Below, in pieces: positions 760-15,304 of a DNA stretch of 64,000 nucleotides (position 1 is the stretch's first letter; every line of letters begins with the position of its first letter). Source of the stretch: a virus (lineage: Duplodnaviria > Caudoviricetes); IMG/VR virus record IMGVR_UViG_3300021399_000005, positions 102,805 to 166,804 of that record; one strand, 5' to 3'. The position numbers were made by a program, and so were the translations under genes. A model generated the notes under the pieces. It was not told the DNA's origin and made no database searches. It saw nothing but the letters and a program-made list of their open reading frames with translations.

Positions 760-834
760 GAGGGAGACCAAAGAGAATCGAACTCTTATTTAGACGGTCA
801 CAACGTCTCGCTCTACCATTGAACTATAGCCTCC
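760..834 (-). tRNA. tRNA-His(GUG)
   Basis: Anticodon arm AGACG-TT GTG AC-CGTCT; G-1 and C73. Confidence 0.9.
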
Positions 835-842
835 ATATAAAA

Positions 843-918
843 TGGTGGACAGTCCCAGTTACGCTCTGGGCTCTCTGGTGTTTCAGACCAGCGCTTTCAC
901 TAGATTAGCTTACTGTCC
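843..918 (-). tRNA. tRNA-Phe(GAA), atypical T-loop
   Basis: CTGGT-CT GAA AC-ACCAG; encoded CCA; T-loop AGCGTAA. Confidence 0.85.
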
Positions 919-1195
919 ATCAAAAAGTGAGGCCCAACCCTCACTGGCAGGATATATAACCCTGGAGTTCCCTCAGCTTTATTAAGTCCAGTATGACAAC
1001 ATTCACTACCGAGGTGGTGGAAAAAAAGAAAAAAGGTTAAGAACATTCTGCGGATCCCTGACGTTTTTATGTCCGAAATTTAAAGGGGCATGACTTCCTT
1101 TTAGGTACTGTTGCTGAAGCCTCATTCACTTCACCACTTGCGTTTGGCGTTCTACTTCGGTGGCCAATCCGATTAATATTCCTTTTTTCTGTTGT

Positions 1196-1279
1196 TAGTG
1201 CGGATAACAGGACTCGAACCTGTACGCACGAGGCATTAGTTTCTAAGACTAACATGGCTGCCAATTACATCATATCCGC
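1196..1279 (-). tRNA. tRNA-Leu(UAG)
   Basis: TTAGT-CT TAG AA-ACTAA; variable arm; TTCGAGT T-loop. Confidence 0.92.
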
Positions 1280-1469
1280 ATGTATAAAAACTTTCTTCAA
1301 CCCTGATTTACCTAGCCCACGTTACGATTTATCTAGGCGTTTCTGCAATTGGGTGCTATTATCCCTAGCGTTGAATTTTAGGGCACTTCCTGAGAGATCC
1401 TTGGGTATCTCCTTTAAAGATTCGCGGGTCTTTAAAGGTTCGCATTGAAAGCTTTTTTAAAAAATAAAA

Positions 1470-1543
1470 TGGCGGCCCCAATAGGAATCGAACCTATATT
1501 GTTTGAATCAAAATCAAATGTTTTACCATTAAACTATGGGGCT
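1470..1543 (-). tRNA. tRNA-Gln(UUG)
   Basis: TTTGA-TT TTG AT-TCAAA; ends GCCA. Confidence 0.9.
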
Positions 1544-1558
1544 ATAAACTTGGGATTT

Positions 1559-2302
1559 TTATAGAAGTTCCCATTCTTCATCAGAGTATTTTTGTATATC
1601 TTTTTTTGTTCTTGGTAAGCTAAATTTGTCACATCATTTTCTAATAGCGTTATCAGAAACATCATACTGTCTTCCAATTTCTAAAAAAGATTTAGTACGA
1701 ATTAAATTTTTTAATTCTTCTCTTGAAACTGGCATTTTTTCAAGAGAAATTACTGAATGTTTAGCGTTACATTCTTTGCATCTAATTGCTCCATAAGAAA
1801 TTTTTACTCCACAATCAACACAATGTGACTCTTTTCTTGAGAGTTTTTCTGAAACATTTTTTCCAGCAAAAGTATCTGTTTGTCTGTCACAGTTTGGACA
1901 AATTCAACGTAAGTTTTCTAACCTATCATCATGATTGTCTCCGTTAATATGGTCTAAAGTTAATGTCAACGGTTTTCCTTGTCATTCAGGAGGTAACCCA
2001 CAAATTGCACACTTATATTCAGAATAATTTCCCTTTAAATATCATCTACGAAGTGTTGCTTGCGTTGCAGTAGAATTTTTTATAAAAACATTTTCTTCTG
2101 TTCGTTTAATAGCACCTTTTGCAACCCCAGTAAAATGATTTGTACTAATTTTATATTCATCTAGTACTTTTTGAATGGTTTGAAAATTTGAGCCAATTGA
2201 TTTATACCCAAGTTTTCGTTGTAGTTCTCTCATTGAATGAGATTCTTTAACTAATTTTTCTAATTCTTCTTTAGAATATTGACGAACTAATGCAACTGTC
2301 AT
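1559..2302 (-). CDS. Free-standing HNH endonuclease with Zn-finger and C-terminal HTH (247 aa, 4 in-frame TGA=Trp)
   Basis: Reading TGA as W gives CAICG..PEWQGKPLTLTLDHINGDNHDDRLENLRWICPNC, colinear with the HNH at 7490-8002; ends TAA. Confidence 0.9.
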
Positions 2303-2386
2303 AATATAATCTCCCTTCTTCTTATATATTATAACAAATAATGCAAAAGAATGTCAATTTTCTGCCCAAAGATTTTAAACAAAATT

Positions 2387-2464
2387 TGGCGGTCCCGACG
2401 AGACTTGAACTCGCAACCTCCGCAGTGACAGTGCGGTACTCTCAACCAATTGCGCTACGAGACC
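2387..2464 (-). tRNA. tRNA-Asp(GUC)
   Basis: CCGCA-CT GTC AC-TGCGG; ends GCCA. Confidence 0.92.
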
Positions 2465-2600
2465 GTATATTGTGGCACCAGGCTTTAACGGGTCTAGCCA
2501 CTTTTCGTCCGGCTTTGACGATATCAAGCTACCGAATGATTGTTTCTACTTCACAATCAATAACACGGGTTTAAGAGGTTTTCCTTCCTCATGATGAACT

Positions 2601-2951
2601 TTAAATTTTGATTTCGTGGATTTTTAAGTTCATTTCTTTTGCATTTTTCAGCATGTTTTTCGAGCCTGGAGATGAACCGTTCCAAAACAGTATTAATGCA
2701 TCAGCATACTCTGCCATCTGTTTATTTCTGATTGGACCAGCTGCTCGTCCATATGTGTTCCAATCAGCAGGAAATCGTTTTACAGGCAATCCATTTTCCT
2801 TTGCATACCGTTCTCCGAGTTTATCAACGCCTTGAGCACATCCGGAAACAATCTCAATATTTGTCTGGTTGGAAAGGTAATGATTCAGAACGGATTTGAC
2901 AAAAGTATAATTCGTAAAATGTCTACTACCTGCAACAATAACTTTAAACAT
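2601..2951 (-). CDS. DUF2493 / YspA-like SLOG-family protein
   Basis: Start at MFKVIVAGSR after GAGGAG SD; motifs IVSGCAQGVD, AGPIRN, WNGSSPGS. Confidence 0.85.
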   Translation of the reverse strand: MFKVIVAGSRHFTNYTFVKSVLNHYLSNQTNIEIVSGCAQGVDKLGERYAKENGLPVKRFPADWNTYGRAAGPIRNKQMAEYADALILFWNGSSPGSKNMLKNAKEMNLKIHEIKI

Positions 2952-2973
2952 GCTCTTCTCCTCTAATAAAAAG

Positions 2974-3047
2974 TGACGCATACGGGATTCGAACCCATGA
3001 ATGCCGCCGTGAAAGGGCGGTGTGTTAAGCCACTTCACCAATGCGCC
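2974..3047 (-). tRNA. tRNA-Glu(UUC)
   Basis: CCGCC-CT TTC AC-GGCGG. Confidence 0.92.
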
Positions 3048-3050
3048 ATA

Positions 3051-3136
3051 TGGTGGGACGAGGTGGAGTTGCACCACCGGTGTATCTTACGTGGCGGTTT
3101 TACAGACCGCTGGAATCGCTGCTATCCTACCGTCCC
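3051..3136 (-). tRNA. tRNA-Tyr(GUA), atypical T-loop
   Basis: GCGGT-CT GTA AA-ACCGC; long variable arm; T-loop TGCAACT; CCA. Confidence 0.88.
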
Positions 3137-3154
3137 ATTTTTTTTATTTATAAT

Positions 3155-3238
3155 GTGCACCCAAGCAAGGAATCGAACCCTTTGTTGGCAGATTTGGAGT
3201 CTGCTGAAGACCCCAGTCTTCTTTGAAACTGCTCGGAT
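3155..3238 (-). tRNA. tRNA-Trp(CCA) with aberrant D-arm and acceptor/D linker
   Basis: GCAGA-CT CCA AA-TCTGC; G73; 6-bp D-stem GAAGAC/GTCTTC with TGGG loop; 9-10 nt linker after acceptor strand. Confidence 0.8.
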
Positions 3239-3241
3239 ATA

Positions 3242-3317
3242 TGGTGCCGACTAGAGGAATCGAACCCCCAACCTACTGATTACAGGTCAGTTGCTCTGCC
3301 AGTTGAGCTAAGTCGGC
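3242..3317 (-). tRNA. tRNA-Thr(UGU), C33
   Basis: ACTGA-CC TGT AA-TCAGT; acceptor GCCGACT/AGTCGGC; CCA. Confidence 0.9.
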
Positions 3318-3320
3318 ATT

Positions 3321-3429
3321 TGGTGGCGGTCTATTTAAGAACAATCACGCGCGACTAGAGATTTCTTGGTTGTTAGCAGTATCTATTTAGCTTTCATAGA
3401 CTTACCAACTACTGCATGTTCTGCCCGCC
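3321..3429 (-). ncRNA. Unknown 109-nt structured RNA with paired ends and ACCA 3' terminus
   Basis: GGCGG/CCGCC-ACCA terminal stem; nested AGAACA/TGTTCT, GCAGTA/TACTGC, TCTAT/ATAGA; no T-loop or anticodon arm. Confidence 0.6.
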
Positions 3430-3556
3430 ATATGTTTTAAGTCGCATATCGTTGCACGTTTATAAGGGAAAACATGCAAACCCAAGAGTCCTTTTATTTT
3501 ACGTCCTACACCTTATCGGACGGAAGGAAAGCTTTCCCTTTCCTTTTTACACATAT

Positions 3557-3585
3557 ATTATATCACAAAATTTTTATTTTGTCAA
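3557..3585 (-). promoter_or_regulatory. Sigma-A-type promoter for the downstream tRNA/tmRNA block
   Basis: TTGACA-N17-TATAAT with extended TG; -35 overlaps the TGA stop of the methyltransferase. Confidence 0.85.
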
Positions 3586-4463
3586 TATTTTTTTGCTTTT
3601 GCAACAATAGTACAAGTCATATATGGAAAAATTTCTTCATTTTTATCATTAAATACCCATACCTTTGTAGTAATAAACTTAGGATACTCTTCTTTGCTTT
3701 TGGCAAAAGAAATAATATCAAAGTTAGCTTCTTTAATTACTTTTGTCCAAGCATTTTCAGATAAAATACAAAATTTTTCATTAATTTCTCTGTGCCAGCT
3801 ATCTGCGCCCCAAGTCCATGTTGCAAAGAATTCTTGAATTAATTTAATAGAACATTTAATTTCATGGTCATTCAGAACAACATAACTGCCAAATTTATCC
3901 CTACCTTGAATATAGGGAAAATCTCTTACAAAACGTTTAAACCATCCAAAATCTTTGCGGGTTAAAAAATTAACTCTACAAGATGTCGGCATTTGAGCTT
4001 CTAAGCCATCTCTAATAATTAAGGTACCACCATTCGCCAAAAGCGCATTTGCGTCTTTTAAAGCATTTTCAATAGGAATTGAAGTGTATCTTGCGGCAGG
4101 TTCTGCATAAGAAGAAAATTCGTGCAGAACAGAAGAGAAAATAACACAGTCAAATTCAATTTTTAACTTTTCTTTAACTTCTTCTAATCCAATACAATAT
4201 ACTTCAAGTTGATGTGAGCGTGCAATCTCTACAGCTTTTGGATTTAAGTCAATGCCAATAACTCTCGCTTCTGGATTAACCTCTTTAATGATTTTCATTA
4301 AAGAGCCATCTGCGCAACCCACGTCTAGGATGGTCTTACAACCAAAAGTATAGAAAGGAATCATCTGCTTAGAGCTTGTAGAACAACTGTTCCTCATTCT
4401 GTTTAAATAAGTTGAATAATTTTCTTCGTTCTGATTTGCTAAATATTCCAATGTATTTGCCAT
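3582..4463 (-). CDS. Class I SAM-dependent methyltransferase
   Basis: Motif I ILDVGCADG, VIGIDLN, FDCVIFSSVLHE, LANGGTLIIRD. Confidence 0.88.
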   Translation of the reverse strand: MANTLEYLANQNEENYSTYLNRMRNSCSTSSKQMIPFYTFGCKTILDVGCADGSLMKIIKEVNPEARVIGIDLNPKAVEIARSHQLEVYCIGLEEVKEKLKIEFDCVIFSSVLHEFSSYAEPAARYTSIPIENALKDANALLANGGTLIIRDGLEAQMPTSCRVNFLTRKDFGWFKRFVRDFPYIQGRDKFGSYVVLNDHEIKCSIKLIQEFFATWTWGADSWHREINEKFCILSENAWTKVIKEANFDIISFAKSKEEYPKFITTKVWVFNDKNEEIFPYMTCTIVAKAKKY

Positions 4464-4524
4464 AGCTTAAGACTCCTTTCCTTTTTTCTATATATATTTT
4501 ACTATATATTTTTAAAATAATCAA

Positions 4525-5697
4525 TTAGGAGGCTTTAAAATTGTAAATTGGTTTTAGAATTTTTTCAATTCTAACAGTATCTTTAACTAATTCAATAATT
4601 TCTTCTGATGGTTTGTAAGCAAAAGGAGATTCATCTAAAGTTTCCTCAACAATAGAAGTAGAATAAATTCCTTCCATAGTGTTCTGGAAATCTTCTAAGT
4701 TTATTAACTCTTTTGCTTGTTTTCTTGACATAACTCTGCCTGCGCCATGCGGAGCAGAATTATTCCAATCTTCATTACCTAGACCTGTGCCCAGGATACA
4801 ACCATCGCGCATATTCAATGGAATTAAAACTCGTTCTCCGTAATGTGCGGAGATAGCACCTTTGCGCACGATTCCATCTTTAAAAGAAATGTAGTTATGA
4901 ATAGTTTCAAAAGAATCTATTCCTTCCCATCCCATAGCAAGACAAATAATTTCTCCTATTGCTTCTCTATTGATAGAAGCAAAGTTTTGACATATTTCCA
5001 TATCATGAAGATAATCTTTTCTATCTTGACCTTCTAAATAGCATAATTCTTTTGGGATGTTGACCACTGGAATTTGGGCCAAAGCATTTGAAATTTCCTT
5101 TTGTCTTCCTGCTGCTTTATATTCTCGAATCAATTCTTCTCTTGCGGATTTGTTATTTTGGCAGTTTTTTATAGCTAAATCTTGGTAGTAAGAAGCTACT
5201 TGGACTCCTAAATTTCTAGAGCCAGAATGAATTATTAAATAAATGTTACCGTCTTCGTCCTGATCCAGTTCAATGAAGTGGTTACCACCACCAAGAGAAC
5301 CTAAAGATCTTTCAAGCCAATCTACATCATGCAAATAAGAATAACATTTTAATTTGTGTAAAAAAGAAGTATCTGAAACAGGAATTTCATGAACATTACA
5401 TCCAGATGGAACATAAGTTCTAATTACTTCATCTAATTTTGCAAAATCTACTGCAAGAGGTCCAAGGTTAGCTGTAAGCATGCCGCAACCGATGTCCACT
5501 CCGACAACATTAGGAATAACTTTATCTGTCATGTTTGCGGTAAATCCAATAACTGTGCCTTTTCCAGCATGGCAGTCTGGCATTATTCTAATCTTGGAAT
5601 CGGAAAAAGCAGCTGATTCAGAAATTGCTTCAATTTGTTCTTTTGCTGTTTGTTCCAAAGTTTTTGCATATATCTTTAAATCTGACATTTTTATCAC
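4525..5697 (-). CDS. rtcB: RtcB-family RNA 2',3'-cyclic phosphate/3'-phosphate ligase
   Basis: MPDCHAG, GVDIGCG, LGSLGGGNHFIE, HSGSR, HNY, SAPHGAGR, DESPFAYK. Confidence 0.97.
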   Translation of the reverse strand: MIKMSDLKIYAKTLEQTAKEQIEAISESAAFSDSKIRIMPDCHAGKGTVIGFTANMTDKVIPNVVGVDIGCGMLTANLGPLAVDFAKLDEVIRTYVPSGCNVHEIPVSDTSFLHKLKCYSYLHDVDWLERSLGSLGGGNHFIELDQDEDGNIYLIIHSGSRNLGVQVASYYQDLAIKNCQNNKSAREELIREYKAAGRQKEISNALAQIPVVNIPKELCYLEGQDRKDYLHDMEICQNFASINREAIGEIICLAMGWEGIDSFETIHNYISFKDGIVRKGAISAHYGERVLIPLNMRDGCILGTGLGNEDWNNSAPHGAGRVMSRKQAKELINLEDFQNTMEGIYSTSIVEETLDESPFAYKPSEEIIELVKDTVRIEKILKPIYNFKAS

Positions 5698-5750
5698 CTC
5701 TTACATTATTATTATATAATAAATTATTATAAAAATCAAAAGAGAAAGAA

Positions 5751-5903
5751 TTATTCTTTCTCTTTTAAACGTTTTAATTCGTTTTCTAATTCCATAATTC
5801 TTGCAGCAGTCTTCTTATCTTCTTCATCTCTCATTTTCATATCAAGAATAATTAAAACAAGAGTAAAAAAACTAACTACAATCTGAACAAGAGCAAGTTC
5901 CAT
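5751..5903 (-). CDS. Small protein with N-terminal hydrophobic helix (50 aa)
   Basis: MELALVQIVVSFFTLVLIILD...; TAATG coupling to upstream gene. Confidence 0.6.
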   Translation of the reverse strand: MELALVQIVVSFFTLVLIILDMKMRDEEDKKTAARIMELENELKRLKEKE

Positions 5904-6130
5904 TAAAGACCAGCCTTTCTTCGTCTTTCTATTAGTTTTTCAGCAAGTTTTTCTGCTTCTTTATTACCAAGAGGATCATAATCTCCTCAACGAGCAATAG
6001 AATTTTCTAATTTACGAATTTTTCGCCTAACTTTTTTTAATGCGCCGGGGCAGGCGAAAGATTTCCCTTTGGCTAGAATGCGTTGCTCTCTAGCTCGTAA
6101 TTCCGCAAGTTTTAATTCTTTTTCTGTCAT
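5903..6130 (-). CDS. Small basic protein (75 aa if TGA at 5987-5989 is Trp)
   Basis: AAGGAG SD; read-through ends in a TAATG overlap with the next gene. Confidence 0.6.
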
Positions 6131-6151
6131 ATTATCTCCTTAAAAATAAAA

Positions 6152-6239
6152 TGGCGTTGATTGAGGGATTCGAACCCTCGGTACCGGATGGTACGGCAAC
6201 TTAGCAGGTTGCTGGTATAGACCGCTCACCCAAATCAAC
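6152..6239 (-). tRNA. tRNA-Ser(GCU)
   Basis: GCAAC-CT GCT AA-GTTGC; long variable arm; GCCA. Confidence 0.92.
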
Positions 6240-6246
6240 ATAAAAA

Positions 6247-6320
6247 TGGAGAGCTAGGTCAGATTCGAACTGACGTTAAGGCGGTTGCAGCGCCGTCCCT
6301 GGCCACTTGGGTACTAGCTC
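6247..6320 (-). tRNA. tRNA-Cys(GCA)
   Basis: GGCG-CT GCA AC-CGCC; U73; CCA. Confidence 0.9.
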
Positions 6321-6646
6321 ATTATTCCTAGCATTCTACTTTAACTTTAACTCTTGGAACTTTATATTCTTCTGAGCCATAGCCTCTTGTTTCAATTGAA
6401 CACTCTACTTGAACACTATCTTCTAATATGTCAAAATATTCTGCTACAATTTTTTTAATGTCTTTTTCATCTAATTCACAAATTTGTCTCATTAAAAATA
6501 CTCCTTAAAATTGGCGTTGAGCGGGGTCGTTTTCAACTCAATTTACGTCTAATTATTTTTAGTCGCCAGCGGCTATTATTTAAAGACCAACGACATCAAG
6601 TTTTTAGTTGCCTAGGACACGGGATGACTATAAACCTTTTGTAAAG

Positions 6647-6729
6647 CGCCGTGCACAGGATTCGAACCTGCAAAGCTTTTCAGCTCAACGGTTTTCAAGA
6701 CCGCTCCCTCACCAACCCGGACACACGGC
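6647..6729 (-). tRNA. tRNA-Ser(UGA)
   Basis: GCGGT-CT TGA AA-ACCGT; variable arm; G73. Confidence 0.9.
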
Positions 6730-6734
6730 ATAAG

Positions 6735-6809
6735 TGGACTGTGAGAGGCTCGAACTCCCGACCTGTCGCTTATGAGGCGATAGCTCTAACCAAACTGAGC
6801 TAACAGTCC
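6735..6809 (-). tRNA. tRNA with CAU anticodon (Ile2 or elongator Met)
   Basis: TCGC-CT CAT AA-GCGA; acceptor GGACTGT/ACAGTCC. Confidence 0.88.
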
Positions 6810-6816
6810 ATAAAAA

Positions 6817-7035
6817 CTATTTAAAAAGTTTTTTTCCTGTTTTAGGGTCTTTTATATATTCTCCATGAATTTTTGGTTCCCCATTTCTTTTTACAACAAC
6901 CTTTCCAAAACTTTTATTCTCTTGTTCTACAAGATTGTTCCAAAAATTATCAATATTTTCGGTATTTTTAAAAGTTTCTTCATCAAAATCAATTTCGACT
7001 TCTTTAGTTACACAATAAGTAAGAATACCTTTCAT
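6817..7035 (-). CDS. Hypothetical protein
   Basis: 72-aa ORF with AAGGA SD between tRNAs. Confidence 0.65.
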   Translation of the reverse strand: MKGILTYCVTKEVEIDFDEETFKNTENIDNFWNNLVEQENKSFGKVVVKRNGEPKIHGEYIKDPKTGKKLFK

Positions 7036-7057
7036 ATTTTTCCTTTCTTTAAAAAAG

Positions 7058-7130
7058 TAGGGGTTGACAGACTCGAACTGTCGACTTCCGATTTGTAAGA
7101 CCGATACTCTCCCAACTGAGCTAAACCCCT
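7058..7130 (-). tRNA. tRNA-Val(UAC)
   Basis: TCGGT-CT TAC AA-ATCGG. Confidence 0.9.
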
Positions 7131-7133
7131 ATT

Positions 7134-7249
7134 TGGTGGAGCCGGAAGGATTTGAACCTTCGTTTCTGGTGACGAACCAGCCTCTTGCCATGGATAGTTT
7201 TTCATAATGTTGTCATCATTATTACTCTCTATCTCCAGAAGATAGCCCC
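7134..7249 (-). ncRNA. tRNA-like RNA with Ala-type acceptor stem, canonical T-arm, CCA, giant D-arm and non-canonical anticodon arm
   Basis: GGGGCT/GGCTCC-ACCA (G3.U70, A73); T-arm GAAGG-TTCAAAT-CCTTC; about 60-nt nested stem replaces the D-arm; CTGGT-TCGTC-ACCAG hairpin. Confidence 0.7.
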
Positions 7250-7256
7250 ATTAAAA

Positions 7257-7332
7257 TGGAGAATATGGGATTCGAACCCATCTGTTTTCCTGTTTGCAGG
7301 ACAGGTAACCACCCCAAGCAGTTCCATTCCCC
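7257..7332 (-). tRNA. tRNA-Ala(UGC), C33
   Basis: CCTGT-CC TGC AA-ACAGG; G3.U70. Confidence 0.88.
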
Positions 7333-7392
7333 ATGTATAAAGTGTCAGAAGCGGGACTCGAACCCGCACGAGATTTTACCTCACGGGATTTT

Positions 7393-8163
7393 CTTACTAC
7401 TCTATATCACTATAGCCGCGGAAATCCGCGTTGTAGTCTGGACTATTTCTTAACCATAGCTTACGCCTTAGGTTGATGGTATATAGTCTCTACACATTTA
7501 TTTTGGGTTTAATATTCTTACCTCTATAAGTTTCAGTAGTTGCATGACAATTTGGACATAAATATCTAAGATTTTCTACTCTGTTATCATTATTATTTCC
7601 ATTAATATGGTCTATTTCCAATGCAATTTCAGTATTTAGCCAATGCCCATCACATCCACAGAATTGACATTTATATTCTATAACATTATGTCTTTCAACA
7701 TAACCTCTTAAAACTTTTTGTGTAACAGGACTGTTTTCACAAAATACTTCTTCAAGTTGATATTTTTCTTTATTTAAACTATCTCTTACAAGTCGTTCAT
7801 CAGTTTCTTTTGTTTTTCCTTTACTCCATAACTGACCTGTAAAATGTGAAATATCAATTCCAAATTCTGCAATTTTTTTCTTTAAAGTTTCTTGATTTCC
7901 TCCAGCTTGTTTTCTTCCCGCTTTTCTTAATACTTCAGCAAGTGAATAACTATCAGCACAAAGTTCTTCAAGCCACTCTTTAGTATATTTTTGTAATGCC
8001 ATATACTATCTCTCCTTTCATATAAATATGAAAAGTTCGTCTACCTTTTTATAAAGGTCTACCCAAAAATTTAGCTCGTCGTTGCCTCTACCTAAATAAA
8101 GGTTTTCGTCGAATTAGCCATCATTCACACTAGAAGTTTCCTATCTAGGTGCTCAAATTATCT
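7393..8163 (-). mobile_element. Group I self-splicing intron with internal HNH ORF
   Basis: P1 with U.G at the 5' splice site (CTT^AGA..TTTGAG); R element GTAGAGACTA; S element AAGAAATAGTCC; terminal omega-G at 7393. Confidence 0.9.
7490..8002 (-). CDS. Intron-encoded HNH homing endonuclease
   Basis: CQFCG..LEIDHINGNNNDNRVENLRYLCPNCH; own SD AAGGAG; stop overlaps the P7/R element. Confidence 0.92.
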   Translation of the reverse strand: MALQKYTKEWLEELCADSYSLAEVLRKAGRKQAGGNQETLKKKIAEFGIDISHFTGQLWSKGKTKETDERLVRDSLNKEKYQLEEVFCENSPVTQKVLRGYVERHNVIEYKCQFCGCDGHWLNTEIALEIDHINGNNNDNRVENLRYLCPNCHATTETYRGKNIKPKINV

Positions 8164-8201
8164 AAGTCCCGTATGCCTACCAGTTACATCATTCTGACAT
8201 G

Positions 8202-8275
8202 TGGAGCGGGTGAGGGGAGTCGAACCCCCGTTATCAGCTTGGAGGGCTGAAGCTCTACCGTTAAACTACACCCGC
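8202..8275 (-). tRNA. tRNA-Gly(UCC), C33
   Basis: TCAGC-CC TCC AA-GCTGA; acceptor GCGGGTG/CACCCGC; U73; CCA. Confidence 0.9.
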
Positions 8276-8280
8276 AGATT

Positions 8281-8357
8281 TGGCACTCCTTACAAGACTT
8301 GAACTCGTAACCTCCTGGTTCGTAGCCAGGCACTCTATCCAGTTGAGCTAAAGGAGT
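8281..8357 (-). tRNA. tRNA-Arg(ACG)
   Basis: CCTGG-CT ACG AA-CCAGG; GCCA. Confidence 0.92.
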
Positions 8358-8576
8358 ACGCGTACCGTTGCAGTGATTAACGAGATGCTATGCGGTTTTC
8401 CTGGGTTTCTTTCTCGTTTGATTAAAGTAGCTACTCTTTAATCAAAAATAGTACCTTGCTTTGCCTTCTTATTATGCGTTTGCCACAAAGCCCTATACCT
8501 GAGAACTCTCAGTCGAGGGTAGTTGAGGTACCAAACCAATGTTAACGCACGTAGTTTATTGTCTATTGCGGACCAG

Positions 8577-8650
8577 CGGCTCGTGTAGGATTCGAACCTA
8601 CGACCTGGTGGTTAACAGCCACTCGCTCTACCGGGCTGAGCTAACGAGCC
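8577..8650 (-). tRNA. tRNA-Asn(GUU)
   Basis: GTGG-CT GTT AA-CCAC; G73. Confidence 0.92.
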
Positions 8651-8748
8651 ATATGTGAATGGTGGTTCTACTTCCTTTCGACAGCACCACCGAACCGAGA
8701 AGATCTTCCTAGGCGTAGCTGCAGTCTACGTTATCCTAAGAATGGAAG

Positions 8749-8822
8749 TCGGGATGGCACGATTCGAACGTGTGATCCCCTGGTCCCAGGCCAGGTGCTC
8801 TACCAAACTAAGCTACATCCCG
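8749..8822 (-). tRNA. tRNA-Pro(UGG), C33
   Basis: CCTGG-CC TGG GA-CCAGG; C1-G72, A73. Confidence 0.88.
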
Positions 8823-9087
8823 ATATTTAGAGGTGTAAATTCCACCGCAGTGAGGCATACACCATGCCCGTTTGCAAACTCTCATTTTTTACCCCTGTCT
8901 CGTCGGCTAAGCACTTGTAAAAAACGCTACGTCCCAGAGGAGTCTTTTTTAATTCTTTTTGAAGGAGTGAAGATCTGAGAAGGCAGTCTCTCCAAGTCAA
9001 ACAATTCCTAAAGTTTTAAGTCTTGAGGTCACTGTTTTTGTAAAGACTAAAGCAGTTTAAAGACATGGTTTAGGTCTATGATGGTAG

Positions 9088-9159
9088 CGTCCCCACGAGG
9101 AGTCGAACCTCGATTGTGGGTTTAGAAGACCCAGGTACTATCCATTGTACTATGGAGAC
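9088..9159 (-). tRNA. tRNA-Arg(UCU)
   Basis: TGGGT-CT TCT AA-ACCCA. Confidence 0.9.
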
Positions 9160-9164
9160 ATAAA

Positions 9165-9242
9165 TGGTTCCGGGGACAGGACTCGAACCTGCATCCGCAC
9201 AGCTTATGAAACTGGCCATCTGCCTTTGATATGTACCCCGGT
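9165..9242 (-). tRNA. tRNA-Met(CAU), A1xA72 mismatch
   Basis: CAGT-TT CAT AA-GCTG; CCA. Confidence 0.85.
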
Positions 9243-9247
9243 ATATT

Positions 9248-9323
9248 TGGTGACTCGTGGGCGATTTGAACGCCCGACCCTCTGATTAAAAGTCAGATGC
9301 TCTACCAACTGAGCTAACGAGTC
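9248..9323 (-). tRNA. tRNA-Lys(UUU)
   Basis: TCTGA-CT TTT AA-TCAGA; CCA. Confidence 0.93.
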
Positions 9324-9391
9324 ATACAGAGAACGCATTGAGCGTTCCAAGAAACTCTGTCTACATTAGTAGACGAGCTAATAACTAAATA

Positions 9392-9469
9392 TGGTCAGGG
9401 TGAGAGGATTTGAACCTCCGACCTCTCGGTTCCAAGCCGAGCCCTCTACCAAACTGAGTCTACACCCTG
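9392..9469 (-). tRNA. tRNA-Pro(UGG), second copy (U33, A37)
   Basis: CTCGG-CT TGG AA-CCGAG; CCA. Confidence 0.9.
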
Positions 9470-9472
9470 ATA

Positions 9473-9549
9473 TGGTTCCAGAGGTGGGACTCGAACCCAC
9501 ATCCGCACGGTTTATGAGACCGGCCATCTTCCTTTGATTGTACTCTGGT
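9473..9549 (-). tRNA. tRNA-Met(CAU), paralog of 9165-9242
   Basis: CGGT-CT CAT AA-ACCG; CCA. Confidence 0.85.
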
Positions 9550-9557
9550 ATTTAAAA

Positions 9558-9632
9558 TGGTGAGAATGACAGGATTTGAACCTGTGGTCTTTCGGTTATC
9601 AGCCGAATGCTTTACCACTAAGCTACACTCTC
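9558..9632 (-). tRNA. tRNA-Ile(GAU)
   Basis: TTCGG-CT GAT AA-CCGAA; CCA. Confidence 0.92.
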
Positions 9633-9691
9633 ATTAAGACAGGCTAATATTTTAAGTCGCAGCCTGGTTTAATCGACTACACAGGAGGGAA

Positions 9692-10075
9692 TTAAATTTT
9701 AACGTTTTCCTCATATTTTCGGATACACATATCGGCAATTAAATCAATATTTGCGATTGCTTGCATCCAACAATCAATTTTCTGAAGCTCTTCAATAGAG
9801 CGAGGGAACGGGTCTCCAACAGCAATTTCATACTGAACCCTAGACCACTCTTGCCACTGAATAACCTTGCCTAACTGGTCTGCAAACTCTTTACGAGTTT
9901 TAATTCTACCTTCAACATAATCTTTAGTTAACTCAACAGCATTTCTATATACATTAGTGTTATTAAATATATTGAACATTTCTGCCCGTTTCGCATTTAT
10001 ATTCCAATTAACAACATAAAACTCAAATCCTAAATCATTGGGATAACCATTTTTCTTAAGTTCTAATGACATCAT
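9692..10075 (-). CDS. Hypothetical phage protein
   Basis: 127-aa ORF, GAGGT SD. Confidence 0.75.
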   Translation of the reverse strand: MMSLELKKNGYPNDLGFEFYVVNWNINAKRAEMFNIFNNTNVYRNAVELTKDYVEGRIKTRKEFADQLGKVIQWQEWSRVQYEIAVGDPFPRSIEELQKIDCWMQAIANIDLIADMCIRKYEENVKI

Positions 10076-10083
10076 ATTTACCT

Positions 10084-10374
10084 CTATTCTATTGGCACTA
10101 AGTCCATAATTTGTCTTCCAGTCTTTAATAAAGTAAAGAAGTCATAGGGTTCAATATCTTCACCAGATAAACGAGAGCCGCATTCATGGAACTCCCAATA
10201 GCCATCCTCGTCCTTTTTGAATGACCCTATTTCCCACTTATATTGATAATCCCAATCCCATTGGCAAATTTCTAATCCATCTGCAAGAGTTCCTTCCCTA
10301 GTTCCTTTATTGGTAAGAAAAGTTTTCGTGCAGAGTTCTAAATGACCTAATTGTAATAACGTCATTTTTATCAC
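10084..10374 (-). CDS. Hypothetical phage protein
   Basis: 96-aa ORF with own sigma-A promoter and SD. Confidence 0.72.
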   Translation of the reverse strand: MIKMTLLQLGHLELCTKTFLTNKGTREGTLADGLEICQWDWDYQYKWEIGSFKKDEDGYWEFHECGSRLSGEDIEPYDFFTLLKTGRQIMDLVPIE

Positions 10375-10423
10375 CTTTCCCTTTTTACATTATTATTATA
10401 TCACAGAATTTTTAAAAAGTCAA

Positions 10424-10921
10424 CTACTTTTTTAAAATTTTGATAATTTCTTCTGCTTTCTCTTTTGTGAGACCCTTAGTGCGCCAATCGGTTTTTACTA
10501 GATGGTCATCAATATCAAATTTTGCATAATCTGCAAAATATTCATCATCAACAACAGCCCAAGAAGTTGGAGCTGGTTCTAAGGTATCTACAACATGGCG
10601 AATGCCACACCCTCTGCCAGTTACCATTCCATCATAGGTTTTGTCGGTAACTTTTAAACCAACAGAAGTAAATCTTTTATCAATCTCGTTAGCAAAAATA
10701 TCTTGATTCTCTTTATGAATCTTATACCACTCTGCTTTCCAAGTTGAAGTTAGCCAAATTTCTGCTCCAGTTTCATTAATAATGTACTTAAGGTTTTGAA
10801 GTTTATCTTCATCTATTCCCAGATATTTATCTCCAATTTCTGGGTCTGGTATTAAATAAGGAGTTGACGCATCACAGTTCAAAACTCCGTCAATGTCTAG
10901 AAATAAAAGTCTTCGAATCAT
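10424..10921 (-). CDS. HAD-family phosphatase (HAD_SAK_2 / Swiss-army-knife RNA-repair type)
   Basis: LLFLDIDGVLN motif I, LTSTWK, RGCGI, WAVVDD, GLT near C-terminus. Confidence 0.82.
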   Translation of the reverse strand: MIRRLLFLDIDGVLNCDASTPYLIPDPEIGDKYLGIDEDKLQNLKYIINETGAEIWLTSTWKAEWYKIHKENQDIFANEIDKRFTSVGLKVTDKTYDGMVTGRGCGIRHVVDTLEPAPTSWAVVDDEYFADYAKFDIDDHLVKTDWRTKGLTKEKAEEIIKILKK

Positions 10922-11247
10922 TTGCGCACCTCCAATTTAAAAAAATAAGCGGGGTAAAATTTTTAAAAATTAAATTTTACCCCATATTATCTAAGCTCTC
11001 TCTACATGGAGATTAAAAAAAGATGGAAAACGAGAGAGGGAAATTTATTTATACTGTCTCTTAGAAAAACAGTCTTGAACTATTAGTGAGAAGCCGATGT
11101 ACCACGTCAAGGTTGTTCAATGCTCATCGGTACCAGGTTTTCACAAAAGTTGACCAGACTTCCTACCCATTTAATGTGGCGGCAATCCCACGTTGACAAA
11201 GCCTGTTGATAGGGTTACTAACCTGGTTGGTCAGGTGCGTAAAAGTT

Positions 11248-11321
11248 GCCTCAGGGTTGGACTTGAACCAACGACCTCTAGGTTATCAGCCTAGCGCTCA
11301 TACCCTCTGAGCTACCCGAGG
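11248..11321 (-). tRNA. tRNA-Ile(GAU)-like element embedded in a longer stem
   Basis: CTAGG-CT GAT AA-CCTAG; no CCA; C73; flanked by TGCGTAAAAG/CTTTTACGCA inverted repeat. Confidence 0.8.
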
Positions 11322-11622
11322 CCTTTTACGCAAAATTTGAACTTTGTTCTAGAAGCGTTCTTCTCCTAGCCAGTCTTTATATCCACCATATGGCTATCAG
11401 GGGACAGAATTCTGATTTTATAAAAAGAGGTTTCAACAGAAGCTATCTGTTATTTTTCCCTTTTTACATTATTATTATATAATAATTTTTTAAATTTGTA
11501 AAGATGAGAAGTTTTCGGCGCAATGGTGTTCTGCGCAAACCGTTTATTGTCATTTCTTTTTCCTTTTCTCTTTTTACATATTAATTATATAATAATTTTT
11601 CTAATTATTCAAGTTGGAGATC

Positions 11623-12372: not shown

Positions 12373-12876
12373 TCACCAATTTTGTTTTAAAACTAAGTTT
12401 CCACCTTTGCACTTTTTGCAAGTACAAGAATCTAAGTTTTTTAAAGTTTTACACATGCGTTGATAATGTGCAACTACTTTATCACAAGTAGGACAGTAAA
12501 CTTCATAGCGTGAACGCCCTTTAATGTCGGCGGTTTGGATATAGATACCACCGCTCGCGCAATCAATTTTTTCGCAGATAGCCTTAAAGACTTTGTCATG
12601 CCCATGATTTTCTTTTGTGGTTTTTGTAACGTAGTAATGCGCCCATTCGTGTTTGATAGTTTCAATTACATCTTCATCTTGGGCACGTTCCAAAAATGAT
12701 TTAGAAAATTCCATTTTTTGAACATAATATTCTTCAGTACTAGGTCTAAAGGTATACATAACTCTTCCAAGAGTACGAGATAAACGTCCATTTATGTAAA
12801 TTGGACATGTGAATTTATCGTTCATTGATTCAGAAATCTTTTTACATTCTTCTGTTAATCTTTCTACTGTCCACAT
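12373..12876 (-). CDS. SprT-like zinc metalloprotease with Zn-ribbon
   Basis: RLSRTLG, TIKHEWAH (HExxH), HGHDKVFK, CPTC..CKKC. Confidence 0.88.
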   Translation of the reverse strand: MWTVERLTEECKKISESMNDKFTCPIYINGRLSRTLGRVMYTFRPSTEEYYVQKMEFSKSFLERAQDEDVIETIKHEWAHYYVTKTTKENHGHDKVFKAICEKIDCASGGIYIQTADIKGRSRYEVYCPTCDKVVAHYQRMCKTLKNLDSCTCKKCKGGNLVLKQNW

Positions 12877-12937
12877 ATCAAGGCTTTCCTTTCTTTTTAC
12901 ATTATTATTATATCACAAAAAAAATAAAAAGTCAATA

Positions 12938-15304
12938 TTAACTTCAATAAAAAATGTCTAAAAGGTCATCTTGAACTGAAAGTGGTTGTTGTTCATCTGC
13001 TGCTACATTAGCAATAAACCCTAAAGCATGAGTTCCTCTTTTATCAGACAAACCAGAAATACTCTTTCATGCTCATTGTCCATTAGTAGCTCCTCAAGCG
13101 GCTTCTTTTACAGTTAAACCATTTTTTAAGTCTGTTAAATCTAACAAAAATACCTTTAATGTATGTCTTGTTCTTAGTCTTAAATTAAAAGTATTTCCTT
13201 CTACTGGGAACCACATCGAAACTAAGGCAGGGTCAAAATCAGTATTTTTTGAATTTAGTCTATAATGAAGTGGAACCATTCTTGCGGTAAGTTTATTTTG
13301 TGCGGCGGAACTGGTTTCGTAAGCTACAGAAGCAGGAATTATTGGTTCTGTAACACCATTTCCTGAAGTAGAAGAAGCTTCAATTGTTGATTTTATAATA
13401 TAATCAACACAATTATTAACGTTTGTTTTTAAATTATAAAGACTGTTTGGTCCTAGATGAGGCAAGTGAACAGGGCCAGCCCCAGTAGTTTTAAAGAGAA
13501 TTTCTTTTACATCATCTGTGATAAAGCGACTAACAGAAAGGCTGAAATCTTTTGTCACATAGTATCCGTATGAACCGTGGTTTGGACTGTTGAAATCTCC
13601 AAGAAGTAAATCTCTTGTCTGGTATTGATGTGTAATAGTGTCAAAAGAAAAGCCGAATCTTAAAGGAAGTGGACAAGCATTTTCTTTTTTTGGATTCGGG
13701 CCTTCAAAATGCAAAATTCTATCCAATAAGAAAAATACATTGTTAATTTTACAATAGTAAGAAGAAAAATATTTTCCTTTTAAATTTTGAATATTAATAC
13801 CTCAAGCTTTTGAACCGCAAGAAACAGTAATTGCACCAAATGGAACATAGCTAGCATCTACCCCTTCTTCACAAGGAGTGTAAGAAACAGTTGATCATGG
13901 TGTTTTAGTTCCATCTCTTGTTAAAGCTGCATTTCCACCATCAACAGAAAGATTTTCAATTGAGACAGAAGAAACGTCACATCCTTCATCAAATAAAATA
14001 CAAGAGCCAATAATATTTTTAAAAAACAAAGAAGAAAAATGTAAGTTCTCACTTGGGTCTGTTACATTTGAACTTAATCCACTGGTATCTAGAATCAACT
14101 CTTTACCAAATACTAATGCAGCTTCACGTAATCACTGATCATTTCGGGTACCTTGAGGATATTCTCCAACACGAGAGTCTAAACAATAACCATATTGGAA
14201 TTTTAAACTAGAAAAATACGAATTTACACAAGAGGCCAAACGCAATCCTTCTCTTTGGAATCCTTTAAAAGTTAAGTTTTCAAAATTTCCATTTTTAACC
14301 CTTACAAGAGATAAAAGCGTTTTTAAAGGTGTAGCTTGCGCACTTAGCGGCACACTATCATTAACCAATTCCTCATTAAGGCCACTGGTAAAAGTTAAAT
14401 TTCTTAAACTAATATTTGAAAAATACGCATTTGCAGAACTTTCTAAACTTGAACCAACACCTCAAAGGAATTGGTCATCGTCAGTTTCTTTTTCGTAAGC
14501 AATAACAGTTCCAAGAGTTCTATTGGTAATGTCTAAATTTTGTCCTACTCCTTCGATAGTGATATTTTCTCCATTTAAAATTGTTGGATGGAAATAAAAT
14601 CTGCCGTTTCCGAATTGGAGGGTGATATTACCTTCTGCGCAAACTCTTGACAAAATTTTTGTATTATTCTCTGCTGCGCTACGGTCATTTGCTTTTCCTC
14701 CTAGTTGTAAAAAATTAAGATGGTCATCATGAATTAATACCATACAATTTTCATTTTCTGCTAACTGATGAACAAATATTCCATCAACTACAACATTAGT
14801 AGGGGGAGATACATAATAAATAGCTGAGCCACCATCATTAATATTATACCTGCCTAAAGTAATTATGTAGCTTCCAGCAAGAAGTTCTTTTTCTTTTTCT
14901 TGTGTCACTTCTTCACTACCTGGATTATAAACATTTAAAACTTCTTCAAAAGTAGGGAAAATTTTTACTGCACCAGAAGCCATAGTTTCTAAGGAGCTTT
15001 GAAAGCCTTCTACAGCTCCTTTTAAGCTTTCGAATGTGCTTGATATTTTTTGCATTTGAGTATTTACTATACTAGTAATTTGAATTATATCTACTTTTCC
15101 CTGTTCTTTTAAAGTATATAAAAATAATTGTCCATCATCAATAACAAAAGCAGAATTATTTATTGTTATTGCTTCCTGTTGTACAGCAGTATTGAAAGCT
15201 TCTTTTGATTGAAATAGGACAATTCTATAATCATCTTCTTGAAGGACGGGTTTAAAAGCAAGTTCTTTTCCGTCTATATATATTTTCGAAATACTACCAC
15301 TCAT
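12938..15304 (-). CDS. Tailspike/depolymerase-like beta-helix protein (788 aa, 8 in-frame TGA=Trp)
   Basis: Four ORF-track fragments share one frame, separated only by TGA; ITLGRYNINDGGSAIY, NFLQLGGKAND, LQFGNGRFYF resemble pectate-lyase-3-type spikes; ends TAA. Confidence 0.8.

What the first reader, a model, noticed from the sequence alone, without database searches (positions are those of the whole stretch)
3242..8822. Four family-box tRNAs replace the invariant U33 with C
Seen: anticodon loops CC-TGT-AA (Thr), CC-TGC-AA (Ala), CC-TCC-AA (Gly) and CC-TGG-GA (Pro), each in an otherwise well-formed tRNA with correct acceptor identity; a second Pro(UGG) keeps U33. Four independent occurrences confined to U34 four-codon boxes argue against sequencing error. 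Established: U33 forms the U-turn, and anticodon-loop changes in phage tRNAs can evade host anticodon nucleases. Inference: nuclease evasion, altered superwobble, or C-to-U editing substrates.
Basis: partly seen in the sequence, partly recalled or inferred. Interest (0 to 1): 0.75.

Follow-up and report, generated by a model that had tools for sequence, protein, structure and literature searches.

The report
Phage tRNAs with C33 loops
Four transfer-RNA genes of an uncultured 167-kb gut phage carry C instead of the almost universal U just before the anticodon; the swap is recent in this lineage, recurs independently in many phage tRNA sets but hardly ever in cellular tRNAs, and may shield the tRNAs from a host enzyme, though that is untested.

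Summary
tRNA-Thr(UGU), Ala(UGC), Gly(UCC) and Pro(UGG) have 7-nt anticodon loops with C32-C33. ARAGORN and Infernal agree on this, and a second assembly of another strain (99.7% identical) has the same four bases.

The state is derived: orthologous Thr and Gly tRNAs in the nearest diverged relatives have U33.

Four of about 27 tRNAs is well above the 1-2% C33 I measured in other viral-contig tRNAs (p about 0.0003-0.002).

C33 is not peculiar to this phage:
- It recurs independently in related gut phages, mostly in U34 family-box tRNAs.
- It is the majority state of one tRNA-Pro(UGG) anticodon arm in viral contigs (27 C : 10 U) but not in cellular genomes (5 : 18).
- It occurs in tRNA-Lys(UUU) of E. 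coli lambdoid prophages.
- It occurs in published Val tRNAs of cluster C1 mycobacteriophages.

RtcB and other RNA-repair genes lie inside the tRNA array.

Best reading (about 40%): C33 removes a U33-dependent contact or cleavage site for a host anticodon-loop enzyme. The main rival (about 33%) is a tolerated, near-neutral variant.

This scan has already reported C33-rich phage tRNA sets on many other genomes. I found no paper that names the phenomenon.

The parts
3242..3317 (-). tRNA-Thr(UGU), loop CC-UGU-AA, C33 = + strand G at 3285, CCA encoded
   Evidence: 66.3 bits. The orthologue in L164 (5 differences in 76 nt) and those in L466, L468, L470 and L473 have U33.
7256..7333 (-). tRNA-Ala(UGC), loop CC-UGC-AA, C33 = + strand G at 7299; G3.U70 and A73 present; unusual D arm; no CCA encoded
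   Evidence: 32.4 bits. The same odd-D-arm Ala family has C33 in L325, L328, L334 and L335, and U33 in L341.
8202..8275 (-). tRNA-Gly(UCC), loop CC-UCC-AA, C33 = + strand G at 8244, CCA encoded
   Evidence: 61.8 bits. Orthologues with the same arm in L468, L470, L472, L473 and L474 have U33. Unrelated Gly(UCC) genes in L325 and L466 have C33.
8748..8822 (-). tRNA-Pro(UGG), loop CC-UGG-GA, C33 = + strand G at 8789, no CCA encoded
   Evidence: 56.9 bits. The same 17-nt arm with C33 is the majority state in viral contigs.
9392..9469 (-). Second tRNA-Pro(UGG), loop CU-UGG-AA: U33 but A37 instead of the usual G37
762..11322 (-). tRNA array: 24 ARAGORN tRNAs plus further Rfam and intron-split ones, about one tRNA per codon box; the tmRNA at 35-339 lies just outside these coordinates
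4525..5697 (-). RtcB RNA ligase, which seals 2',3'-cyclic-phosphate/3'-phosphate and 5'-OH ends, inside the tRNA array
   Evidence: Pfam PF01139, E = 2.2e-58; NCBIfam RtcB family.
3558..4463 (-). Class I SAM-dependent methyltransferase next to RtcB; substrate unknown
   Evidence: There is no sequence match to solved Hen1 structures. The RtcB-methyltransferase pair is conserved in L161-L164.
10424..10921 (-). HAD domain of the 'Swiss Army Knife' RNA-repair proteins
   Evidence: Pfam PF18143, E = 1.6e-21.

Best explanation
The four genes encode working elongator tRNAs in which U33 has recently been replaced by C. U33 is the nucleotide whose 2'-OH and base flank the 33/34 phosphodiester. I propose that C33 is kept because it removes a contact or cleavage determinant for a host enzyme that acts on the anticodon loop of the corresponding host tRNAs. 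The likeliest candidate is a metal-independent, uridine-preferring anticodon nuclease that cuts at or beside U33-U34.

On this reading the phage's own tRNAs keep translating while host tRNAs are attacked, and RtcB in the same array repairs what is still cut.

Shown here: the C33 genes are real, derived, recurrent and phage-enriched, and RNA-repair genes lie among them. Inferred: the tRNAs are expressed and charged, a host enzyme depends on U33, and C33 blocks it.
For: 1. Real and derived. Two strains carry all four C33. Orthologous Thr and Gly tRNAs of the nearest diverged relatives have U33.

2. Convergent. C33 arose separately in Gly(UCC) at least three times, in Ala(UGC) at least twice, and in Val(UAC), in related gut phages.

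3. Phage-specific. For one tRNA-Pro(UGG) arm, unique sequences are 27 C: 10 U in viral contigs against 5 C: 18 U in cellular genomes (odds ratio 9.7, p = 0.00016).
   - The cellular C33 copies lie in dense tRNA arrays or on a phage-like contig.
   - C33 and U33 Pro tRNAs are intermixed (nearest-neighbour concordance 37/60), so C33 has many origins.

4. Not GC pressure. This phage is 34% G+C. Among loci with the Pro arm, those with C33 are not richer in G+C than those with U33.

5. Not decay. Thr, Gly and Pro score 57-66 bits, which is typical for the array.

6. Context. RtcB, HAD_SAK_2 and a methyltransferase lie inside the array. RtcB's substrates are the ends left by HEPN- and colicin-type anticodon nucleases (established knowledge).

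7. Precedents for cutting at 33/34.
   - PrrC cuts tRNA-Lys 5' of the wobble base (established knowledge; PMC10264068).
   - LshCas13a cuts tRNAs mainly at the first anticodon nucleotide, with a preference for U (PMC11042736).

8. Precedents for phage tRNAs that resist host tRNases. T5 tRNA-Lys escapes AriB through two substitutions (PMC12409363).

9. C33 is compatible with function. The natural C33 of yeast tRNA-Leu(GAG) barely affects decoding (bioRxiv 10.64898/2026.02.20.707122).
Against: - No nuclease, host or cleavage site is known for this phage.
- Only 4 of about 14 U34 tRNAs carry C33. Lys(UUU), Glu(UUC), Gln(UUG), Ser(UGA), Val(UAC) and Leu(UAG) keep U33.
- Along close phage tRNA pairs, position 33 changes at about half the mean per-site rate (5 events against a mean of 9.2). 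There is therefore no sign of accelerated, arms-race turnover.
- Phage tRNAs also depart from other 'invariant' positions, about 7-14% at the crude indices for positions 8 and 14, which points to generally looser constraint.
- Close relatives with the same RtcB-methyltransferase pair have U33 in Thr.
- Expression and charging are not shown.
Confidence: 0.4

Rival explanations
1. Tolerated near-neutral variant. Phage tRNAs work beside a full host set for one short infection, so selection on U33 is weak. The transition U to C keeps a pyrimidine and a usable loop, and C33 alleles drift in and out without any target enzyme.
For: - Position 33 changes at an ordinary rate among close phage tRNAs.
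- U33/C33 differ between near-identical orthologues: window against L164 for Thr, L325 against L341 for Ala, L474 against L473 for Val.
- Other conserved positions are also looser in phage tRNAs.
- Nearly all non-U33 cases are C (96 C against 9 A or G), as expected from a transition with a mild cost.
- Yeast C33 is nearly neutral.
- An RNA contig of a relative lacks 41 nt of the C33 tRNA-Pro.
Against: - Drift starting from U33 should not make C33 the majority state, yet it is 27:10 for the Pro arm in viral contigs.
- In a 34% G+C genome the mutational bias runs against T to C.
- Drift does not predict enrichment in one anticodon class.
- Drift does not predict clustering of several C33 genes in the same phages: 10.2% of bystanders in C33-Pro loci against 2.1% elsewhere.
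Confidence: 0.33
2. Decoding adaptation. C33 reshapes the U-turn so that a single tRNA with U34, possibly unmodified, reads all four codons of its box better or with fewer frameshifts. This would suit a phage that carries one tRNA per box and reads UGA as Trp.
For: - In this phage and its relatives C33 is concentrated in U34 family-box tRNAs: 13/80 against 4/199, p = 3e-5; independent subset 6/68 against 4/183, p = 0.027.
- The array has one U34 tRNA per box, as in Mollicutes.
- The neighbouring position 32 is known to tune four-way reading by tRNA-Gly(UCC) (established knowledge: Lustig et al. 1993).
Against: - Val(UAC), Leu(UAG) and Ser(UGA) of the same phage keep U33.
- Orthologues in relatives with the same recoded lifestyle have U33.
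- In other phages C33 is frequent with G34 and C34 anticodons.
- No published decoding effect of C33 was found.
Confidence: 0.15
3. Self-marking. The phage itself destroys host tRNAs of these four kinds with an enzyme that needs U33, and C33 marks its own copies as exempt.
For: The phage has a complete tRNA set, its own genetic code and nucleases within the array, such as the HNH at 1559-2302. These would allow a takeover of translation. There is no direct evidence.
Against: - No tRNase was recognised among the eight array ORFs scanned.
- Relatives with U33 orthologues share the same gene neighbourhood.
Confidence: 0.05
4. C33 is a substrate for C-to-U editing, or is a sequencing or assembly error, so the mature tRNA has U33 after all.
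For: None. In gut metagenomes the look-alike tRNA-Gly contigs with A (= U33) at 8244 are more abundant, but they are short pieces from other organisms.
Against: - Two assemblies from different strains agree.
- A bovine-gut contig covering 6242-9304 appears to keep G at 8244, judged from depth arithmetic.
- No deaminase was seen next to the tRNAs.
- No bacterial or phage C33 editing is known (my knowledge).
Confidence: 0.04

Closest known systems
Nuclease-insensitive phage tRNAs (hypothesis of van den Berg et al. 2023, eLife, PMC10264068)
   Same: These are phage-encoded tRNAs whose anticodon loops differ from host-type loops, proposed to escape VapC, PrrC and colicin D/E5-type enzymes. Their supplementary table already holds C33 genes: Val(GAC), loop UC-GAC-AC, in 144 of 161 cluster C1 mycobacteriophages, and Val(CAC), loop UC-CAC-AC, in 142 of 161. 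I read both from the listed sequences.
   Different: The paper never mentions position 33, U33 or C33. It treats loop changes case by case against known cleavage sites. Here the change is always at the U-turn nucleotide, in other isoacceptors, in a low-GC gut phage of unknown host.
Phage T5 tRNA-Lys(UUU), Thr(UGU) and Asn(GUU) that neutralise the PARIS nuclease AriB (PMC12409363)
   Same: This is experimental proof that one or two substitutions in a phage tRNA anticodon arm give resistance to a host tRNase. tRNA-Thr(UGU) is among the targets.
   Different: AriB cuts between 40 and 41 in the stem, and the resistance changes are U39A and A41C, not position 33.
tRNA repair against anticodon nucleases (T4 Pnk/Rnl1 against PrrC; RtcB-type repair)
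   Same: An RNA ligase gene sits with the phage tRNAs. PrrC cuts between U33 and the wobble base and leaves ends that RtcB can seal.
   Different: Here repair (RtcB) and a possible genetic immunisation (C33) occur together. The T4 system uses Pnkp and Rnl1, and T4 has no tRNA-Lys of its own.
Natural C33 tRNAs of eukaryotes: cytoplasmic initiator tRNA-Met, and S. cerevisiae tRNA-Leu(GAG)
   Same: C33 sits in an otherwise normal 7-nt loop, and the yeast elongator works almost as well as its U33 version (bioRxiv 10.64898/2026.02.20.707122).
   Different: These are single, fixed, cellular genes. They are not a recurrent and variable feature of mobile tRNA sets.
tRNA-Lys(UUU) with C32-C33 in the Ile-Lys-Thr-Gly cluster of E. 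coli/Shigella lambdoid prophages
   Same: It is a phage-borne tRNA with loop CC-UUU-AA, lying between the antiterminator Q and the lysis genes. PGAP annotates it as tRNA-Lys. It covers at least 80% of the query in 342 of 5,426 complete E. coli genomes. Its isoacceptor is the substrate of PrrC, which cuts at 33/34.
   Different: The host, isoacceptor and phage type differ, and the discriminator is U73 rather than A73, so charging by LysRS is uncertain. I found no study of it.

Membership tests
tRNA (Rfam RF00005) | Cloverleaf scoring above the family's gathering score (29 bits) | tested here: met
   Thr 66.3, Gly 61.8, Pro 56.9, Ala 32.4 bits.
tRNA (Rfam RF00005) | 7-nt anticodon loop on a 5-bp stem with U at position 33 | tested here: not met
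   The loop and stem are canonical, but position 33 is C in all four. This is the finding itself. U33 is a near-invariant, not a formal requirement.
tRNA (Rfam RF00005) | Acceptor-stem identity elements that match the anticodon | tested here: met
   Read. Ala: G3.U70 and A73. Gly: G1-C72, C2-G71, G3-C70, U73. Pro: C1-G72, A73. Thr: G1-C72, C2-G71. The rules come from established E. coli identity sets.
Nuclease-insensitive phage tRNAs | Encoded by a phage | tested here: met
   The record is a 166.8-kb virus with direct terminal repeats. All tRNAs lie in one array.
Nuclease-insensitive phage tRNAs | Anticodon loop differs from the host's cognate tRNA at or next to a nuclease site | tested here: inconclusive
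   The host is unknown. Orthologues in relatives, and cellular tRNAs with the same arms, have U33. Position 33 borders the PrrC and Cas13a cut.
Nuclease-insensitive phage tRNAs | Demonstrated resistance to a host tRNase and rescue of infection | not testable with these tools
   Needs cleavage assays and phage genetics.
RtcB RNA-repair module | RtcB ligase domain | tested here: met
   PF01139, E = 2.2e-58. Homologues are 60% identical or more across phages and cells.
Pnkp/Hen1-type repair with 2'-O-methylation of the junction | Hen1 methyltransferase | tested here: not met
   The neighbouring methyltransferase matches only generic class I SAM-dependent methyltransferase models and has no solved Hen1 among its PDB sequence hits.

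The most novel reading that the evidence does not exclude
U33-to-C33 is a convergent, selected immunity mark of phage and mobile-array tRNAs against a still unidentified class of host enzymes that need the U33-N34 step. In this gut phage group the enzyme would be one that attacks the U34 family-box tRNAs (Thr, Ala, Gly, Pro, Val). A uridine-specific HEPN nuclease such as the Cas13 effectors common in rumen Firmicutes and Prevotella is one candidate. RtcB would serve as second-line repair. The E. coli prophage tRNA-Lys(UUU) with C33 would be the same trick against PrrC.
Probability: 0.3. Interest if true: 0.8.

Novelty: new variant of a known kind. Interest (0 to 1): 0.6.

Why it matters
U33 is among the most conserved nucleotides in biology. 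A class of natural, apparently functional elongator tRNAs that drop it, repeatedly and almost only on phages and mobile tRNA arrays, raises two questions: what U33 is really needed for, and what in the host makes losing it worthwhile.

If C33 blocks an anticodon-loop nuclease, it would be a simple sequence marker for predicting phage counter-defence. It would also be a one-base design rule for nuclease-resistant tRNAs, and a handle for finding the unknown host enzymes.

The E. coli prophage tRNA-Lys(UUU) with C33 makes the question directly testable in a laboratory strain.

Tried and rejected
- **Close relatives in GenBank phages.** Megablast of the array found only short tRNA matches.
- **RtcB-based relatives in IMG/VR.** These were too distant (47-50% identity) to show the ancestry of C33.
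- **Read-level check.**
  - One read-laying run on four runs gave only contigs.
  - The sole listed variant at a C33 site (8244, G>A) comes from short look-alike tRNA contigs of other organisms.
  - The state of the phage's own contig had to be inferred from depths.
  - The listing was truncated, so sites 3285, 7299 and 8789 are not documented either way, and RNA contigs cannot show editing.
- **Hen1 idea.** I considered that the methyltransferase next to RtcB is Hen1, which would seal and methylate the cut. There is no sequence support.
- **Cultured phages with homologous tRNA-Pro** (XacN1, Atu_ph07, Atuin, Whirlwind). They have 1 C33 in 80 tRNAs, so they give no cultured model for the Pro case.
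- **BLAST of an actinobacterial array Val/Asp pair.** It found no mycobacteriophage. The published table served instead.
- **Accelerated turnover at position 33.** Not found: 5 changes against a mean of 9.2 per site.
- **GC pressure as the cause.** Rejected for the Pro arm and for this 34% G+C phage.
- **Native C33 in a bacterium** (sponge-symbiont MAG AqS3, with Thr, Ala and Pro all C33). The contig carries Dam methylase, a holin-like ORF and small unknown ORFs, and the genome has 58 tRNAs, so it is probably phage DNA in the bin. This is not proven.
- **Literature.** Four searches for C33/U33 together with phage, tRNA arrays or anticodon nucleases found no description of the phenomenon.

Full report
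**1. What is there**

The window is the last 64 kb of a 166,804-bp IMG/VR virus record with direct terminal repeats. It has 33.9% G+C. Earlier notes say the phage reads TGA as Trp, and several array ORFs are open only under code 4.

All its tRNA genes lie on the minus strand between 762 and 11322: 24 by ARAGORN, 23 plus a tmRNA by Rfam. The set is close to one tRNA per codon box, with U34 in every four-codon box except Arg.

Four genes have a 5-bp anticodon stem and a 7-nt loop with C at position 33:
- Thr(UGU): CC-UGU-AA
- Ala(UGC): CC-UGC-AA
- Gly(UCC): CC-UCC-AA
- Pro(UGG): CC-UGG-GA

A second Pro(UGG) has CU-UGG-AA.

Infernal aligns each C to the U33 column of RF00005 with posterior probability near 1. 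Thr, Gly and Pro score 57-66 bits, typical for this array. Ala scores 32 bits because of an unusual D arm, but it keeps G3.U70 and A73.

**2. Not an error, and more than chance**

An ENA assembly of another strain carries all four C33. That strain, L161, is 99.74% identical over 12.5 kb, with 31 mismatches and a 770-bp indel.

The phage or close relatives are present in cattle, goat and other animal-gut runs from eight studies. In one bovine run a 3.3-kb contig with 27 differences spans Ala, Gly and Pro. By depth arithmetic it keeps the C33 base of Gly. The competing U33 signal comes from short tRNA-only contigs of other organisms.

As a background, bystander tRNAs of viral loci fetched through the Thr and Gly arms have C33 in 11 of 516 unique sequences (2.1%). 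Without variants of one E. coli prophage gene the figure is 1.2%. Four or more in 27 then has p = 0.0003-0.002.

**3. History in this lineage**

The nearest diverged relative is L164, with 90.5% DNA identity and 86% RtcB identity. Its Thr(UGU) is orthologous, with five differences in 76 nt, one of which is U33.

I reached a wider set of TGA-recoded gut phages through the homing endonuclease of the tRNA-Leu intron (L466-L475). These have Thr and Gly genes with the same anticodon arms and U33. C33 in Thr and Gly is therefore derived and recent.

The Ala gene belongs to a distinctive family with the same odd D arm. That family has C33 in four other viral contigs (L325, L328, L334, L335) and U33 in one (L341), which is otherwise identical to L325.

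**4. Recurrence in relatives**

In the group of 20 related loci (281 unique tRNAs), C33 appears in:
- Ala(UGC), in two unrelated gene bodies
- Gly(UCC), in three unrelated bodies
- Val(UAC), with three different stems
- Thr(UGU) and Pro(UGG)
- singly in Asn(GUU), Cys(GCA) and Leu(CAA)

C33 is found in 13 of 80 U34 family-box tRNAs and 4 of 199 others (p = 3e-5). After removing the window, which generated the hypothesis, and the Ala genes picked by my search pattern, the counts are 6 of 68 against 4 of 183 (p = 0.027). Shared ancestry inflates both tests.

**5. Recurrence beyond the group**

I scanned IMG/VR for each anticodon arm with N at position 33:

| Arm | U33 | C33 |
|---|---|---|
| Thr | 119 | 2 |
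| Gly | 137 | 2 |
| Ala | 10 | 5 |
| Pro | 14 | 40 |

The Pro counts include some non-tRNA matches.

Counting unique ARAGORN tRNA-Pro genes with that arm gives 27 C: 10 U in viral contigs and 5 C: 18 U in one-genome-per-species cellular contigs (odds ratio 9.7, p = 0.00016).

The cellular C33 copies lie in places that are not ordinary chromosomal tRNA loci:
- Three are in 8-kb stretches with about 30 tRNAs each (L359, L410, L447).
- One is on a MAG contig with Dam methylase and a holin-like ORF (L401). Its Thr(UGU), Ala(UGC) and Pro(UGG) all have C33, three of the four kinds seen in the window.

C33 and U33 Pro tRNAs are intermixed by sequence. Nearest-neighbour concordance is 37 of 60. Several viral C33 genes are closest to cellular U33 genes, at up to 91% identity outside the arm. 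The change has therefore happened many times.

Phages whose Pro has C33 also have more C33 in other tRNAs: 29 of 283 against 11 of 516, and up to 8 of 18 in one locus. In those phages C33 is common with G34 and C34 anticodons as well, so the family-box restriction is not general.

Two named examples:
- **E. coli prophages.** A tRNA-Lys(UUU) with loop CC-UUU-AA sits in an Ile-Lys-Thr-Gly cluster between Q and the lysis genes of lambdoid prophages. It covers at least 80% of the query in 342 of 5,426 complete E. coli genomes.
- **Mycobacteriophages.** Val(GAC) and Val(CAC) in 88-89% of 161 cluster C1 mycobacteriophages have C33, read from the published table.

Four cultured jumbo or actinophages had only 1 C33 in 80 tRNAs.

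**6. Selection or tolerance?**

For selection:
- C33 has many independent origins.
- It is the majority state in one phage tRNA family.
- It clusters within phages.
- It shows class bias in this group.
- GC does not explain it. This phage is AT-rich, and Pro-arm loci with C33 are not GC-richer than those with U33.
- The genes are otherwise intact.

For tolerance:
- I took minimum-spanning-tree edges between close phage tRNAs: 175 edges with 697 differences. Position 33 changed 5 times against a mean of 9.2 per site, like position 32 (4 changes). It is not invariant, but it is not a hotspot.
- Crude indices for positions 8 and 14 also deviate in 7-14% of phage tRNAs, against 2-4% in a small cellular sample. 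Misregistered 5' ends inflate these figures.
- Non-U33 is almost always C, as expected for a mildly deleterious transition.
- The natural C33 of yeast tRNA-Leu(GAG) is nearly neutral.

I cannot decide between the two readings with sequence data alone.

**7. Mechanism proposed**

RtcB (E = 2.2e-58), a HAD domain of the 'Swiss Army Knife' RNA-repair proteins and a SAM methyltransferase sit among the tRNAs. The RtcB-methyltransferase pair is conserved in relatives.

RtcB seals 2',3'-cyclic-phosphate and 5'-OH ends, the products of HEPN- and colicin-type anticodon nucleases (established knowledge). This suggests that this phage's tRNAs or its host's tRNAs are cut during infection.

Two such enzymes cut exactly at the 33/34 step. 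PrrC does so in tRNA-Lys. LshCas13a cuts 'mainly at first anticodon nucleotides' with a preference for uridine.

In Thr(UGU), Ala(UGC), Gly(UCC), Pro(UGG) and Val(UAC), U33-U34 is the only UU step of the loop, and C33 removes it. In Lys(UUU), Glu(UUC) and Gln(UUG) the anticodon itself stays U-rich, so C33 would not help. That fits which tRNAs carry C33 here. It does not explain why Ser(UGA), Leu(UAG) and this phage's own Val(UAC) keep U33.

This is inference. No enzyme, host or cleavage was observed.

**8. Comparison with what is known**

The general idea that phage tRNAs carry anticodon-loop changes to escape host tRNases was published in 2023 (PMC10264068). It has experimental support for T5 tRNAs against PARIS (PMC12409363).

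That literature does not mention position 33. Four full-text searches found no description of C33 in phage tRNAs.

Other agents of this scan have reported C33-rich phage tRNA sets on many other genomes and reached similar readings. Those notes are not independent evidence. The phage-versus-cell contrast and the mycobacteriophage example were re-tested here.

I file the finding as a new variant of a known kind. It is a further, low-GC, gut-phage instance. Its added features are that C33 is demonstrably derived, biased to U34 family-box tRNAs, and embedded in an RNA-repair module.

Noticed in passing
window 9392-9469 (-): The second tRNA-Pro(UGG) keeps U33 but has A37 (loop CU-UGG-AA). tRNA-Pro normally has G37, the TrmD m1G37 site that prevents +1 frameshifting. 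Neither of the phage's two Pro tRNAs therefore has a standard loop.
   Followed up: no
window 8769-8811: A 589-nt contig from a gut metatranscriptome run (X17, depth 64, 8 differences in 414 nt) joins 8769 to 8811. It skips 41 nt, nucleotides 13-53 of the C33 tRNA-Pro. This is either a relative with a deleted gene or a reverse-transcription jump on the tRNA.
   Followed up: no
L161 12551-13321, against window 3138-3140: The 99.7% identical strain has about 770 bp extra between tRNA-Thr and tRNA-Tyr, holding a 146-aa ORF (12852-13292). The window has none of it. This looks like a mobile insertion in the tRNA array.
   Followed up: no
L476 6048-6357 (E. coli NZ_CP065613.1 651365-651674); also L004, L134, L145: A lambdoid prophage tRNA cluster Ile-Lys-Thr-Gly lies between antiterminator Q and the holin. 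Lys(UUU) has C32-C33, a wholly different anticodon stem from host tRNA-Lys, and U73. Lys(UUU) and Thr(UGU) are targets of PARIS, and Lys(UUU) is the target of PrrC.
   Followed up: partly
window 7256-7333; L325 6177-6255; L334 2957-3035; L341 1364-1441: A conserved phage tRNA-Ala(UGC) family has an unusual D arm (GGGACUGC.AGG.GUGGUCA) and an identical anticodon arm in at least three phage lineages, some TGA-recoded and one TAG-recoded.
   Followed up: partly
L325 5558-5653; L341 747-842; L466 7687-7782; L470 7590-7685; L471 8446-8541: Related gut phages carry a 96-nt tRNA with anticodon UCA that ARAGORN calls tRNA-SeC. It is probably the UGA-reading tRNA of these recoded phages, with a long variable arm.
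   Followed up: no
L401 4476-6802 (MAG Gammaproteobacteria AqS3, scaffold_40): Thr(UGU), Ala(UGC) and Pro(UGG) all have C32-C33 on one 20.8-kb contig of a sponge-symbiont MAG, next to SurE, Dam methylase and a holin-like ORF. These are three of the four tRNA kinds seen in the window, in an unrelated element.
   Followed up: partly
L360 4870-4944 and L421 1809-1883 (Sporomusa chromosomes): A tRNA-Cys(GCA)-like gene has A33 and loop UA-GCA-AG in two Sporomusa species. It is a cellular non-U33 tRNA of unknown role.
   Followed up: no
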